The translations under genes and the position numbers were made by a program. DNA of 64,000 bases from NCBI GenBank assembly GCA_009914755.4, contig CP086569.2, positions 18,752,001 to 18,816,000 of the forward strand, in the 5' to 3' direction. This document shows positions 44,171 through 55,342 of this stretch, one piece after another. Within the stretch, counting starts at the first letter, position 1. The number at the start of each line of letters is the position of its first letter. The stretch is from the human T2T-CHM13v2.0 reference genome, Homo sapiens. The notes under the pieces are model-generated. The model saw only the letters and a list, made by a program, of their open reading frames with translations, ran no database searches and was not told the origin of the DNA.

Positions 44171-47100
44171 AGGAAGAAGATGGGTGACTTCTCCATTTCC
44201 AACTGAGGTACCAGGTTCATCTCACTGGGAGTGCTGGGAAGTGGGGCAGGACAGTGGGTGCAGTGCATCAATTGTGACCTGAAGCAAGGTGAGGCATCAC
44301 CTCACCCGGGAAGCAAAAGGGGTCAGGGAATTCCTTTTCCTAGTCAAAGAAAGGGGCACCTGGAAAATCAGGTCACTCTCACCCTAGTACTGTGCTTTTC
44401 TAATGGTCTTAGCAAATGGCACACCAGAAGAAGATATCCCATGCCTGCATCAGAGGGCCCTACACTGTTGGAACCTCGCTCATTGCTAGCACAGCAATCT
44501 GAGATCAAACTGCAAGGTGGCAGCATGGCTGGGGGAGGGGCGTCCACCATTGCCAAGGCTTGAGTAGGTAAATGAAGCAGCTGGGAAGTTCGAACCCAGT
44601 GGAGCCCACCACAGCTCAAGGAGGCCTGCCAGCTTCTGTAGACTCCACCTGTGGGGGCAGGGCACAGCCAAACAAAAGGCAGCAGAAACCTCTGCAGACT
44701 TAAATGTCCCTGTCTGACAGCTTTGAAGAGTGTAGTGGTTCTCCCAGCACGCAGATGGATATCTGAGAACAGACAGACTGCCTCCTCAAGTGGGTCCCTG
44801 GCCCCCTGGTAGCCTAACTGGGAGGCACCCATCAGTAGGGGCAGACTGACACCTCACATGGCCAGGTACTCCCCTGAGACAAAAATTCCAGAGGAATGAT
44901 CAGGCAGCACCAGTTGCTGTTCACCAATATCCGCTGTTCTGCAGCCTCCGCTGCTGATACCCATGAAAACAGGGTCTGCAGTGGACCTCAGCAAACTCAA
45001 CAGACCTGCAGCTGAGGGTCTTGACTGTTAGAAGGAAAACTAACAAACAGAAAGGACATGGACACCAAAACCCCATCTGTACGTCACCATCACCAAAGAC
45101 CAAAGATAGATAAAACCAGAAAGATGGGGAAATAATAGAGCAGAAAAACTGGATGCTCTAAAAATCAGAGCACCTCTCCCCCTCCAAAGGAACACAGCTC
45201 CTCACCAGCAATGGAACAAAGATGGACGGAGAATGACTTTGACTATTTGAGAGAAAAAGGCTTCAGATGATCAAACTACTCTGAGCTAAAGGAGGAAGAT
45301 CGAACCCATGGCAAAGAAGTTGAAAACCTTGAAAAAAAATAGACGAATGGCTAACTAGAATAACCAATGCAGAGAAGTCCTTAAAGGATGTGATGGAGCT
45401 GAAAACCAAGGTACAAGAAAAACGTGATGAATGCACAAGCCTCAGTAGCTGATTTGATCAACTGGAAGAAAGGGTATCAGTGATGGAAGATCGAATGAAT
45501 GAAGTGAAGTGAGAAGAGAAGTTCACAGAAAAAAGAATAAAAAGAAATGAACAAAGGTTCCAAGAAATATGGGACTATGTGAAAAGACCAAATCTACGTC
45601 TGATTGGTGTACCTGAAAGTGATGGGGAGAATGGAACCAAGTTGGAAAGCACTGCAGGATATTATCCACGAGAAGTTCCCCAATCTAGCAAGGCAGGCCA
45701 ACATTCAGATTCAGGAAATGCAGAGAACACCACAAAGACACTCGTCGAGAAGAGCAGCTCCAAGACACATAATTGTCAGATTCACCAAAGTTGAAATGAA
45801 GGAAAAAATGTTAAGGGCAGCCAGAGAAAAATGTCGGCTTATCCACGAAGGGAAGCCCATCAGACTAACAGCTGATCTCTTGGCAGAAATTCTACAAGCC
45901 AGAAGAGAGTGGGGGCCAATAGTCAACATTCTTATAGAAAAGAATTCTCTACCCAGAATTTCATATCCAGCCAAACTAAGCTTCATAAGTGAAGGAGAAA
46001 TAAAATCCTTTACAGAAAAGCAAATGCTGGGAGATTTTGTCATCACCAGGCCTGCCCTACAAGAGCTCCTGAAGGAAGTGCTAAACATGGAAAGGAACAA
46101 CCAGTAGCAACCACTGCAATAACATGCCAAATTGTGAAGACCACCGAGGCTAGGGAGAAACTGCATCAACTAGTGAGTAAAATAACCAGCTAATATCTTA
46201 ATGACAAAACCAAATTCACACATAACAATATTAGCCTTAAATGTAAATGGGCTAAATGCTCCAATGAAAAGACACAGACTGGCAAATTGGATAGAGAGTC
46301 AAGACCCATCAGTGTGCTCTATTCAGGAAACCCATCTCACGTACAGAGACACACATAGGCTCAAAATAAAGGGATGGAGGAAGATCTACCAAGCAAATGG
46401 AAAACAAAAATAGACACGGGTTGCAAGCCTAGACTCTGGTAAAACAGACTTTTAACCAACAAAGATCAAAAGAGACAAAGAAGGCCATTACATAATGGTA
46501 AAGGGATCAATTCAACAAGAAGAGCTAACTATCCTAAATATATATGCACCCAGTACACGAGCACCCAGATTTATAAAGCAAGTCCTTAGAGACATACAAA
46601 GAGACTTAGACTCCCACACAATAATAGTGGGAGAATTTAACACCCTACCATCAAAATTAGACAGACAAAGTTAACAGGGATATCCAAGATTGAACTCAGC
46701 TCTGCACCAAGCTGACGTAATAGACATATACAGAACTCTCCACCCCAAATCAACAGAATATACATTCTTTACAGCACCACACCACACCTATTCCAAAACT
46801 GACCACACAGTTGGAAGTAAAGGACTCCTCAGCAAATGTAAAGGAACAGAAATTACAAAAAACTCTCTCAGACCACAGTGCAATCAAACTAAAACTCAGG
46901 ATTAGAAAATTCACTCAAAACCGCTCAACTACATGGAAACTGAACCATCTCTTCCTGAATGACTACTGTGTACATAACGAAAGGAAGCCAGAAATAAAGA
47001 TGTTCTTTGAAACCAACAAACAGCATCTCAAGGATGTGTCTTTGAGAACAAAGACGCAACACACCAGAATCTCTGGGATGCATTCAAAGCAGTGTGTAGA

Positions 47101-49110
47101 GGGAAATTTATAGCACTAAATGCCCACAAGAGAAAGCAGGAAAGATCTAAAATTGACACCCTAACGTCACAATTAAAAGAACTAGAGAAGCAAGAGCAAA
47201 CACATTCAAAAGCTAGCAGAAGGCAAGAAATAACTAAGATCAGAGCAGAACTGAAGGCGATAGAGACACAAAAAACCCATCCAAAAATCAATGAATCCGG
47301 GAGCTGGTTTTTTGAAAACATCACCAAAATTCATAGACCATTAGCAAGACAAATACAGAAGAAAAGAGAGAAGAATCAAATAGACACAATAAAAAATGAT
47401 AAAGGGGATATCACCACAGATCCCACAGAAATACAGACTACCATCAGTGAATACCGTAAACACCTCTACACAAATAAACTTGAAAATCTAGAAGAAATGG
47501 ATAAATTCCTCAACACATACAACCTCCCAAGTCTAAACCAGGAAAAACTTGAATCTCTTAATAGACCAATAACAGGCTCTGAGATTGAGAAAATAATTAA
47601 TAGCTTTCCAATCAAAAAAAGTCCAGAACCAGATGGATTCACAGACGAATTCTACCAGACCTCCAAGGAGGAGCTGGTACCATTCCTTCTGAAACTATTC
47701 CAATCAAGAGAAAAAGAAGGAATCCTCCCTAACTCATTTTATGAGGCCAGGATCATCCTGATACTGAAGGCTGGCAGAGACACAACAACAAAAAAAGGTA
47801 ACTTTAGACCAATATCTCTGATGAAGATTGATGAAAAAATCCTCACTAAAATACTGGGAAACCGAATCCAGCAGCACATCGAACAGCTTATCCACCATGA
47901 TCAAGTGGGCTTTATGCCTGGGATGCAAGGCTGGTTCAACATACGCAAATTGATAAATGTAATCCAGCATATAAACAGAAGCAACGACAAAAACCACATG
48001 ATTATCTTAACAGATGAAGAAAAGTCCTTTGACAAAATTCAACATTCTTTCATGCTAAATAGTCTCAATAAATTAGGTCTTGATGGGATGTATCTCAAAA
48101 TAATAAGAGCTATCTATGATAAACCCACAGCCACTGTTATACTGAATGGGCAGAAACTGGAAGCATTCCCTTTGAAAACTGGAGCAAGACAGGGATGCCC
48201 TCTCTCACCACTCCTATTCAACATAGAGTTGGAAGTTCTGACCAGGGCGATCAAGCAGGAGAAGTAAACAAAGTGTATTCAATTAGAAAAAGAGGAAGTC
48301 CAATTGCCCCTGTTTGCAGATGATAGGATTGTATATCTAGAAAACCCCATCGTCTCAGCCCAAAATCTCTTTAAGCTGATAGGCAACTTCAGCAAAGTCT
48401 CAGGATGCAAAATCAATGTGCAAAAGTCACAAGCATTCTTAAACACCAATAACAGACAAACAGAGGACCAAATCATGAGTGAACTCCCATTCACAATTGC
48501 TTCAAAGAGAATAAAATACCTAGGAATCCAACTTACAAGGGATGTGAAAGACATCTTCTAGGAGAACTGCAAACCACTGCTCAATGAAATAAAAGAGGAT
48601 ACAAGCAAATGGAAGAACATTCCATGCCCATGGGTAGGAAAAATCAATATCGTGAAAATGGCCACACTGCCTAAGGTAATTTATAGATTCAATGCCATCC
48701 CCATCAAGCTACCAATGACTTTCTTCACAGAATTGGGAAAATCTACTTTGAAGTTCATACGGAAGCAAAAGGAGCCCACATTGCCAAGACAATCCTAAGT
48801 CAAAAGAACAAAGCTGGAGGCATTACGCTACCAGACTTCAAATTATACTACAAGGCTACAGTAAGCAAAACAGCATGGAACTGGTACCAAAACAGAGATA
48901 TAGACCAATGGAACAGAACAGAGCCCTCAGAAATAATGCCACATATCTACAACCATCTGATCTTTGATAAACCTGACAAAAACAAGAAATGGGGAAATTA
49001 TTCCTTATTTAATAAATGGTGCTGGGAAAACTGGCTAGCCGTATGTAGAAAGCTGAAACTGGATCCCTTCCTTACACCTTATACAAAAATTAATTCAAGA
49101 TGGATTAAAG
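44171..49110 (+). mobile_element. Older L1 (L1PA-like; lacks ~60 bp at the 5' end). It has a 5' UTR, a disrupted ORF1 and a disrupted ORF2, and ends abruptly inside ORF2 at ...INSRWIK; the 3' ~1.3 kb is missing
   Basis: 5' UTR motifs (tttccaactgaggtaccaggttcatctcactgggagtgc...tgattgctagcacagcaatctgagatcaaactgcaaggtggcag). ORF1 C-terminus at 45604-46107 (...ALQELLKEVLNMERNNQ). ORF2 starts at 46190 (MTKPNSHITILALNVNGLNAPMKRHRLANW) and ORF2 RT at 47092-48267. Confidence 0.85.
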
Positions 49111-55100: not shown

Positions 55101-55342
55101 TGTTCTCACTCATAGCTGGGAGTTGAACAATGAGAACACATGGACACAGGATGGGGAACATCGCACACCAGAGCCTGTTTTGGGGTGGGGGGCGTGGGGA
55201 GGGATAGCATTTGGAGATATACCTAATGTTAAATGACGAGTTAATGGGTGCAACACACCAACATGGCCCATGTATACATATGTAACTAGCCTGCACATTG
55301 TGCACATGTACCCTAAAACTTAAAGTATAATAAAAAAAGAAA
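49111..55342 (+). mobile_element. Full-length (~6.2 kb) younger L1 (L1PA2/3-like). It starts at the canonical ggtggagccaagatggccgaataggaacagctc and has a 5' UTR, ORF1 (frameshifted), ORF2 (multiple stops and frameshifts), a 3' UTR and a short poly-A
   Basis: Canonical L1 5' terminus at 49111. ORF1 ~50190-51245. ORF2 fragments at 51299-55135 (51504-52964, 53265-54092, 53966-54775). The 3' end is ...cacatgtaccctaaaacttaaagtataataaaaaaagaaag at 55300-55342. Confidence 0.9.

What the first reader, a model, noticed from the sequence alone, without database searches (positions are those of the whole stretch)
44171..55342. L1-L1 composite: a 3'-truncated older L1 joined head-on to a full-length younger L1, with a microhomology junction and no obvious TSD
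An older L1 (44171-49110) runs from its 5' UTR through ORF1 into ORF2 and stops at ...ttcaagatggattaaag. A complete younger L1 begins immediately with ggtggagccaagatggccg (shared caagatgg at the junction) and runs to its poly-A at 55342. A simple nested insertion would leave the host L1's remaining ~1.3 kb 3' end plus a TSD after 55342, but non-L1 sequence follows, and the flanks at 44160 and 55345 show no matching TSD. Either the younger L1 insertion was accompanied by a target-site deletion that removed the rest of the older L1, or the arrangement arose by L1-L1 recombination or template switching. The younger element is full length with the canonical 5' terminus but has multiple ORF disruptions, so it is not retrotransposition-competent.
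Basis: partly seen in the sequence, partly recalled or inferred. Interest (0 to 1): 0.5.

Follow-up and report, generated by a model that had tools for sequence, protein, structure and literature searches.

The report
Two old L1 copies joined head-to-tail
A full-length but dead L1 retrotransposon sits directly after an older L1 that has lost its last 1.15 kb, which is an ordinary fossil of one L1 inserting into another and not a new kind of element.

Summary
The structure is real. An older L1 (44175-49110, L1 positions 63 to ORF2 codon 966) abuts a complete 6232-bp L1 (49111-55342). Nothing of the older copy's last 1148 bp is left in the window.

Both copies are L1PA4-grade primate L1s. By ORF1 and ORF2 diagnostic residues the upstream one is early L1PA4 and the downstream one is late L1PA4. 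Private substitutions are 6.6% against 4.1%, so the age gap is real but modest.

The "microhomology junction" does not hold. The two CAAGATGG copies lie 7 nt before and 8 nt after the breakpoint and both are kept. True overlap at the breakpoint is at most 1 nt.

The breakpoint does lie 4 nt after TT|AAAG. This is one of only three strict L1-endonuclease-type sites in the older copy (P about 0.4%). That points to ordinary endonuclease-driven insertion of the younger L1 into the older one.

How the host's 3' remainder was lost cannot be settled without an outgroup. It may have gone at integration (L1 insertion-mediated deletion) or later, by collapse of the duplicated 3' ends. A weak 13/16 flanking repeat, offset by 40 bp, keeps a single-event read-through retrocopy alive as a minority reading.

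This is a known kind of event and of low interest.

The parts
44175..49110 (+). Older L1 (early L1PA4 grade), L1 positions 63 to 4879 of a 6027-bp reference. It has the 5'UTR, ORF1 (45124-46137, 2 frameshifts, 7 stops) and ORF2 (46201-49110, to codon 966, 5 frameshifts, 4 stops). It lacks the last 1148 bp and the poly-A.
49111..55342 (+). Full-length younger L1 (late L1PA4, transitional to L1PA3), 6232 bp. ORF1 is at 50204-51245 and ORF2 at 51309-55126, and both are disrupted. The short tail reads AAAAAAAGAAAG.
49105..49110 (+). TT|AAAG, an L1-endonuclease-type target (bottom strand CTTT/AA). It lies at the end of the older copy, with the nick position 4 nt before the junction.
   Evidence: one of only 3 TT|AAAR sites in 4936 bp. 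Chance that a random breakpoint lies 0-6 nt after one is 0.4%; for 0-20 nt it is 0.9%.
49096..49126 (+). Two CAAGATGG copies (49096-49103 and 49119-49126) that flank the breakpoint without overlapping it.
   Evidence: Chance of a shared 8-mer within 30 nt is 1.1%. Both copies are kept, so it was not used as the joining microhomology.
55332..55343 (+). Short A-rich tail of the younger L1, ending in AAAG. This is the same four bases as the end of the older copy.
   Evidence: The 4-nt match is weak evidence (about 1 in 4 by chance).
44119..44134 (+). Left copy of a candidate 16-bp duplication (AAATAATGTTTTTTGA) flanking the whole composite. It is preceded by TC, which gives an EN-like TC|AAAT.
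   Evidence: 13/16 match, P 0.03-0.05 against three null models
55336..55351 (+). Right copy of the candidate duplication (AAAGAAAGCTTTTTGA). It starts inside the tail.
44135..44174 (+). 40-bp stretch of unresolved origin between the candidate duplication and the first alignable base of the older L1. Its GC is 42.5%, against 18-20% in the adjacent flanks.
   Evidence: It does not align significantly to L1 positions 1-62 (P 0.17-0.25), and the GC shift is not significant (7-11% of upstream windows reach it).

Best explanation
At this locus a late-L1PA4 full-length L1 inserted, in sense orientation, into ORF2 of an early-L1PA4 L1 that was already there. Insertion was by endonuclease-initiated target-primed reverse transcription.

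The host's remaining 1148 bp, its poly-A and possibly some flank were then removed by a deletion whose left edge is the new element's 3' end.

What is shown:
- There are two elements of different age and subfamily.
- The join is out of register (5084 to 1).
- The younger element has a complete 5' end.
- There is an endonuclease-type site at the join.
- The host remainder is absent.

What is inferred is the timing of the loss. My split of total probability is:
- About 0.35 that the remainder was lost at integration, as an L1 insertion-mediated deletion. In this route reverse transcription is primed at a downstream nick and the cDNA 5' end is joined to an upstream break inside the old L1.
- About 0.35 that a normal nested insertion with a 4-bp AAAG duplication came first. 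The two tandem, about 95%-identical L1 3' ends (or the two A-tails) would then have collapsed by unequal exchange or single-strand annealing, or an unrelated deletion occurred.

I cannot honestly rank these two routes. If forced, I lean marginally to integration-coupled loss, because it needs one event and predicts the lack of any abutting duplication.
For: - Structure and register.
- Different ages: private changes 6.6% against 4.1%, CpG retention 24% against 34%.
- Different subfamily markers, using consensus sequences from PMC7449397. In ORF2 the old copy carries PA4/PA5 states and the young copy PA3/PA4 states. In the ORF1 coiled coil the old copy matches cluster 4.4 and the young copy cluster 1a.4.
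- Endonuclease-type TT|AAAG lies 4 nt before the join, with P 0.4-0.9% by chance.
- There is no host remainder anywhere in the window, and the flanks are unrelated to each other.
- A poly-A without a target-site duplication, together with 0-5 nt overlap at the 5' join, are the published hallmarks of L1-mediated deletions (PMC7058536).
Against: - For the integration-coupled route, the endonuclease site lies at the 5' join, not at the priming site. It must therefore be chance (0.4%) or a second endonuclease cut.
- For the later-collapse route, the old L1's own target-site duplication should follow the tail, and none abuts the old L1's 5' end.
- No old-type markers were found in the young element's 3' part. 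ORF2 positions 1042 and 1090 are in the PA3 state, and 1156-1237 are PA4 rather than PA5. Any crossover would therefore have to lie in the last 340 bp or so.
- The 13/16 flanking repeat (P about 0.04) is not predicted by either route unless the 40-bp spacer is filler.
Confidence: 0.7

Rival explanations
1. Single-event retrocopy of a read-through transcript (a long 5' transduction). In this reading the younger L1 had inserted normally into the older L1 elsewhere in the genome. A transcript that began about 40 nt upstream of that older L1 ran through both elements and ended at the younger L1's poly-A signal. The 11.2-kb RNA was then reverse-transcribed into this locus, making a 16-bp target-site duplication.
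For: - It explains three things without any deletion: the missing host remainder, the endonuclease site at the internal join, and the 13/16 flanking repeat with an EN-like TC|AAAT.
- The 40-bp non-L1 spacer becomes transduced source flank.
- 5'-transduced L1 chimeras flanked by TSDs and carrying near-full-length L1s are documented (bioRxiv 10.1101/2025.02.02.635956).
Against: - The flanking repeat is only marginally significant and has 3 mismatches in 16.
- An 11-kb RNA with a 5-kb leader full of upstream ORFs should translate the downstream L1 proteins poorly, so cis-mobilisation would be rare (inference).
- No source locus could be searched for. Exact look-ups of the junction ORFs and one metagenome scan for the junction sequence found nothing, but they had almost no power.
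Confidence: 0.13
2. Template switching during reverse transcription. The reverse transcriptase copies the younger L1 RNA to its 5' end, jumps to an older L1 RNA at position 5084, and copies it to near its 5' end. This would give one insertion with one target-site duplication.
For: - The orientation and order of the two parts fit.
- L1 chimeras attributed to template switching or RNA ligation are known.
- The weak flanking repeat would fit a single event.
Against: - There is no complementarity between the cDNA 3' end (complement of GGGTGGAG) and the acceptor sequence 3' of the join (ACTTAAAT in reference L1s).
- End-to-end jumps go to acceptor 3' ends. No poly-A or plausible RNA end exists at position 5084.
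- RNA ligation needs an uncapped 5'-OH, but the younger part has a complete capped-type 5' end.
- The endonuclease-type DNA site at the join would be coincidence.
- This route does not explain the 40-bp spacer.
Confidence: 0.03
3. One L1 with a partial tandem duplication, or an in-register homologous exchange between two L1s.
For: Only the head-to-tail arrangement on the same strand.
Against: - The two parts differ in private substitutions, 315 against 196 over identical sites (about 5 standard deviations).
- They also differ in CpG decay, in indels and in subfamily-diagnostic residues.
- The join links position 5084 to position 1, so it is not a homologous exchange.
Confidence: 0.01

Closest known systems
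L1 insertion-mediated (target-site) deletion, as seen in cultured cells, ape genome comparisons and tumours (PMC7058536; earlier work recalled from memory: Gilbert 2002, Symer 2002, Han 2005)
   Same: The L1 has a poly-A tail, there is no abutting target-site duplication, overlap at the 5' join is 0-1 nt, and upstream DNA is truncated exactly at the L1 5' end.
   Different: The inserted L1 here is full length, whereas most reported cases are short. The upstream break sits at an endonuclease-type site. The pre-insertion state is not available, so the deletion itself is inferred, not shown.
Recombination-associated deletion between direct repeats (L1 or Alu recombination-mediated deletion, solo-LTR formation)
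   Same: A sense nested insertion would create two tandem 1.1-kb L1 3' ends. Their collapse gives exactly the observed arrangement.
   Different: No mosaic signature was found in the surviving 3' end, and no target-site duplication of the older L1 follows the tail.
5'-transduction / chimeric LINE-1 insertions (bioRxiv 10.1101/2025.02.02.635956)
   Same: A near-full-length L1 is preceded by extra upstream sequence in sense orientation. There is a candidate duplication flanking the whole unit and an EN-like motif.
   Different: The 'transduced' part would be 4.9 kb of another L1 plus 40 bp, far longer than typical. The flanking repeat is only 13/16.
In-register chimeric L1s formed when new cDNA anneals to an upstream endogenous L1 (recalled from memory: Gilbert 2002/2005, Symer 2002)
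   Same: An upstream endogenous L1 lies in the same orientation, and DNA between it and the new insertion has been lost.
   Different: Those joins are homologous and in register. This join links position 5084 to position 1.

Membership tests
Primate LINE-1 (L1PA lineage) | ORF2 encoding an endonuclease plus reverse transcriptase homologous to human ORF2p | tested here: met
   E 3.5e-279 and 2.4e-211 to PDB 8uw3. One search gives the codon-level alignment.
Primate LINE-1 (L1PA lineage) | ORF1 with coiled coil, an L1PA-type 5'UTR, and a 3' end with AATAAA plus an A-tail | tested here: met
   The older copy lacks the 3' end.
Primate LINE-1 (L1PA lineage) | Target-site duplication abutting each element | tested here: not met
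   There is no abutting repeat, only a 4-nt AAAG at both ends of the younger copy and a 13/16 repeat offset by 40 bp.
L1PA4 subfamily (both copies) | Subfamily-diagnostic ORF2 and ORF1 residues from the PMC7449397 consensus sequences | tested here: met
   The old copy matches 53/66 Pa4 and 52/65 Pa5 diagnostic ORF2 positions and coiled-coil cluster 4.4. The young copy matches 59/67 Pa3 and 55/68 Pa4 in ORF2 codons 1-965, 28/33 Pa4 in codons 966-1275, and coiled-coil cluster 1a.4. The 3'UTR-based definition was not tested because no library was available.
L1 insertion-mediated deletion | Poly-A present, no target-site duplication | tested here: met
L1 insertion-mediated deletion | Short (1-5 nt) microhomology or filler at the 5' join | tested here: inconclusive
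   Overlap is at most 1 nt (G). The nearby 8-mer is not at the join.
L1 insertion-mediated deletion | Endonuclease motif at the 3' (priming) junction, and a pre-insertion allele that shows the lost DNA | not testable with these tools
   This needs an orthologous empty or intact site, and no primate genomes are available here.
5'-transduction / single-event chimeric insertion | One target-site duplication flanking the whole unit, with an EN motif | tested here: inconclusive
   13/16 repeat, P 0.03-0.05, preceded by TC|AAAT
5'-transduction / single-event chimeric insertion | An identifiable source locus with the same upstream sequence | not testable with these tools
   searches found nothing but had negligible power
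In-register chimeric L1 / homologous L1-L1 exchange | The join occurs at homologous positions of the two elements | tested here: not met
   Position 5084 is joined to position 1.

The most novel reading that the evidence does not exclude
The whole 11.2-kb unit is one retrotransposition event. It would be a read-through RNA from a nested L1-in-L1 source locus, carrying 40 nt of source flank, 4.9 kb of the older L1 and the complete younger L1. It would have been copied in one pass and be bounded by the 16-bp repeat at 44119-44134 / 55336-55351. That would be an unusually long L1 5' transduction and a case of one L1 co-mobilising another.
Probability: 0.13. Interest if true: 0.4.

Novelty: new member of a known kind. 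Interest (0 to 1): 0.13.

Why it matters
It matters little beyond annotation. It is one more fossil of L1 inserting into L1 with loss of host sequence, and that process is already documented in cell culture, ape genome comparisons and tumours.

Two points have modest value:
- The breakpoint sits at one of only three strict endonuclease-type sites in the host L1. This shows that even a 'TSD-less' junction can carry a readable endonuclease footprint.
- A sense nested L1 creates a tandem 3'-end duplicate whose later collapse mimics an insertion-mediated deletion. Surveys of such deletions in old elements should control for this.

Tried and rejected
1. Extending the older L1 to a full 5' end. Local and end-anchored alignments of 44090-44174 to L1 positions 1-62 are no better than random flanks (P 0.17 and 0.25). 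A forced MAFFT alignment with six real L1 5' ends gives about 58% identity with two gaps.
2. Looking for another origin of the 40-bp spacer in L1, on either strand. Only chance 8-12-mers turned up.
3. Relating the two flanks to each other, or to a common older repeat. Nothing was found.
4. Using spacer GC content as a boundary marker. It is not significant.
5. Testing whether the younger element's 3' end is old-derived. Private-change density in the last 336 bp is 6.1-6.25%, against 4.7% in the body (P 0.28). The excess divergence from the references there is subfamily-level.
6. Collection scans and look-ups.
   - The viral contig scan gave six chance hits with no L1.
   - One metagenome scan searched for the junction sequence and a second searched for an ORF2 stretch shared by both copies, to pull in related L1s. 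Both came back empty.
   - Exact look-ups of three junction-spanning ORFs found nothing.
   - Strings from neither element occur in the PMC7449397 element sets.
7. Treating the shared CAAGATGG as the joining microhomology. This was rejected, because annealing there would leave one copy and truncate the L1 by about 16 nt.
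Full report
**What is there**

BLAST of 49111-55342 against the whole window aligns its positions 63-5084 to 44175-49110 on the same strand. Identity is 86% over 5062 columns, or 88.8% when gaps are ignored. 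So a 3'-truncated L1 is followed without any spacer by a 6232-bp L1.

Translated pieces of both match solved human L1 ORF2p structures (8uw3, E 3.5e-279 and 2.4e-211).

The only other L1 sequence in the window is an independent element at 19.7-21.1 kb and an ancient fragment, about 65% identical, at 61961-62417. The refutation test 'host 3' end a few hundred bp downstream' is therefore negative.

**Reference sequences**

No repeat library was available. I scanned bacterial assemblies for a conserved 5'UTR motif and recovered eight human-L1 contaminant contigs. Two of them (L007, L008) carry intact 338-aa ORF1 and 1275-aa ORF2.

Against these references:
- The older copy starts at L1 position 63 and ends at position 4879 of a 6027-bp reference. 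That is ORF2 codon 966, or position 5084 of the younger copy. It lacks 1148 bp plus the tail, not about 1.3 kb.
- The younger copy begins GGGTGGAGCC, inside the G-run where the other full-length copies begin. It is truly full length.
- Both copies carry an extra 5'UTR block after reference position 777 that the references lack.
- Both have broken ORFs. In the younger copy ORF1 has 2 frameshifts and 2 stops, and ORF2 has 3 frameshifts and 4 stops. In the older copy ORF1 has 2 frameshifts and 7 stops, and partial ORF2 has 5 frameshifts and 4 stops.

**Are they two elements of different age?**

Yes. Over 4769 shared sites the older copy has 315 private differences and the younger has 196. Another 92 differences are shared by both against the references. 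The ratio is the same after CpG sites are excluded. Of 70 reference CpGs the older copy keeps 17 and the younger 24. This rejects a partial tandem duplication of one element.

Subfamily placement used the L1Pa1-7 consensus sequences deposited with PMC7449397.

| Marker set | Older copy | Younger copy |
|---|---|---|
| ORF2 diagnostic positions, codons 1-965 | best match Pa4/Pa5 (53/66 and 52/65) | best match Pa3/Pa4 (59/67 and 55/68) |
| ORF2 diagnostic positions, codons 966-1275 | absent | Pa4 (28/33) |
| ORF1 coiled coil | L1Pa4 cluster 4.4 | cluster 1a.4 |

The pair is therefore early L1PA4 followed by late L1PA4 (transitional to PA3). The age gap is real but modest, about 1.3-1.6 fold.

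**The junction**

The shared CAAGATGG is present twice (49096-49103 and 49119-49126), and both copies are retained. One lies 7 nt before the breakpoint and the other 8 nt after it. Joining through that homology would leave a single copy and a 5'-truncated L1, so it is not junctional microhomology. True overlap is at most one G. A shared 8-mer this close has about a 1.1% chance. I treat it as coincidence, or at most as a transient tether.

A more telling feature is that the older copy ends in GGATT|AAAG. TT|AAAR on the sense strand (CTTT/AA on the other strand) is the classical L1 endonuclease target for a sense-oriented insertion. The T-poor older L1 contains only three such sites. The chance that a random breakpoint lies 0-6 nt after one is 0.4%, and 0.9% for 0-20 nt. 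With a broad motif set the figures are 3.5% and 9.7%. The same AAAG also ends the younger element's tail (55340-55343), but a 4-nt match is weak evidence.

**Target-site duplications**

Nothing abuts the older L1's 5' end and the tail. The best repeat is AAATAATGTTTTTTGA (44119-44134) against AAAGAAAGCTTTTTGA (55336-55351). It matches 13/16 and starts correctly inside the tail, with P 0.03-0.05 against three null models. It lies 40 bp upstream of the first alignable L1 base.

Those 40 bp do not align significantly to L1 positions 1-62. They have no other detectable origin. Their higher GC is not significant.

**Mechanism**

An out-of-register join (5084 to 1) excludes homologous L1-L1 exchange as the origin of the junction. 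The endonuclease-type site argues that the younger L1 entered the older L1's DNA through the normal endonuclease route.

Three routes then account for the missing host remainder:

(a) Deletion at integration.
- This fits the published hallmarks: poly-A, no TSD, and 0-5 nt overlap (PMC7058536).
- It needs only one event.
- The endonuclease site, however, lies at the 5' join rather than at the priming site, so it must be chance or a second cut.

(b) Normal nested insertion with a 4-bp AAAG duplication, followed by collapse.
- The insertion creates two tandem L1 3' ends of about 1.1 kb, which later collapse.
- This uses the endonuclease site directly.
- It predicts the older L1's own TSD after the tail, which is not seen.
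- Old-type markers are absent from ORF2 codons 1042-1237 of the surviving 3' end. Any crossover would therefore have to lie in the last 340 bp or so.

(c) Retrocopy of a read-through transcript from a nested source locus.
- This explains the endonuclease site, the missing remainder, the 13/16 repeat and the 40-bp spacer together.
- It matches the known class of 5'-transduced, near-full-length L1 chimeras.
- It requires mobilising an 11-kb RNA whose L1 ORFs lie behind a 5-kb leader, and it rests on a marginal repeat.

My rough weighting is (a) 0.35, (b) 0.35, (c) 0.13, template switching 0.03, and the rest for unmodelled rearrangements. Template switching lacks any complementarity at the join and any reason for an internal acceptor site.

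**Verdict**

The thing itself is an ordinary L1-in-L1 fossil of a known kind. Only an outgroup locus or a genome-wide search for the junction can settle which route removed the host's 3' end.

Noticed in passing
window 19676-21116: A separate, younger L1 (1-3% from L1PA3-like references over most of its length) has a 5' inversion of the twin-priming type. Its inverted segment is 19691-19970 and its direct segment 19966-21063 plus tail. It is bounded by a perfect 15-bp target-site duplication AAAAACCCTAAATCC (19676-19690 and 21102-21116). The inverted segment ends at L1 ...GATGGATTAA, within about 2 nt of the site where the older L1 of the finding is truncated. The target's 3' end AATCC is complementary to GGATT there. 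This is probably coincidence.
   Followed up: partly
loci L007-L014 (e.g. LZSC01000001.1 Mycobacterium sp., BMRF01000060.1 Actinomadura cremea, CANKZF010000005.1 uncultured Nocardioides): Contigs in public bacterial genome assemblies are human L1 sequence. Two carry intact ORF1 and ORF2, and some are mosaics of subfamilies (L011) or have a foreign 3' end (L007). This is human contamination in bacterial assemblies. It was useful here as an L1 reference.
   Followed up: partly
window about 50730-50753 (younger L1 ORF1): There is a 24-bp insertion, CTTGGTTTCCAACTGAGTGTTGGA. Part of it is the reverse complement of the adjacent ACCAAGTTGGAAA, which looks like a small fold-back templated insertion.
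   Followed up: no
younger L1 5'UTR about 49.9-50.1 kb and older L1 5'UTR about 44.9-45.0 kb: Both copies keep a 5'UTR block after reference position 777 that the L1PA3-like references lack. It is 169 bp in the younger copy and about 118 bp in the older. From memory, this corresponds to the roughly 129-bp ZNF93-bound segment deleted in later L1PA3/L1PA2 elements. The younger copy has about 41 bp more than the older.
   Followed up: no
window 43949-43973 and 55395-55455: There is a 25-nt T run upstream and a (TG/TA)n-type microsatellite downstream of the composite. Similar TG/TA-rich sequence also occurs at 43985-44035, but no significant alignment links the two flanks.
   Followed up: partly
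window 61961-62417: An ancient L1 3'-end fragment, about 65% identical to the L1PA 3' end, lies on the same strand. It is far too diverged to be the missing remainder.
   Followed up: partly
window 44162-44174: The 13 bases directly before the older L1 read AAAACCTGAAGGA and are preceded by TC. That is the shape expected for the 5' copy of that element's own target-site duplication (TC|AAAA). No matching 3' copy exists after the composite.
   Followed up: partly
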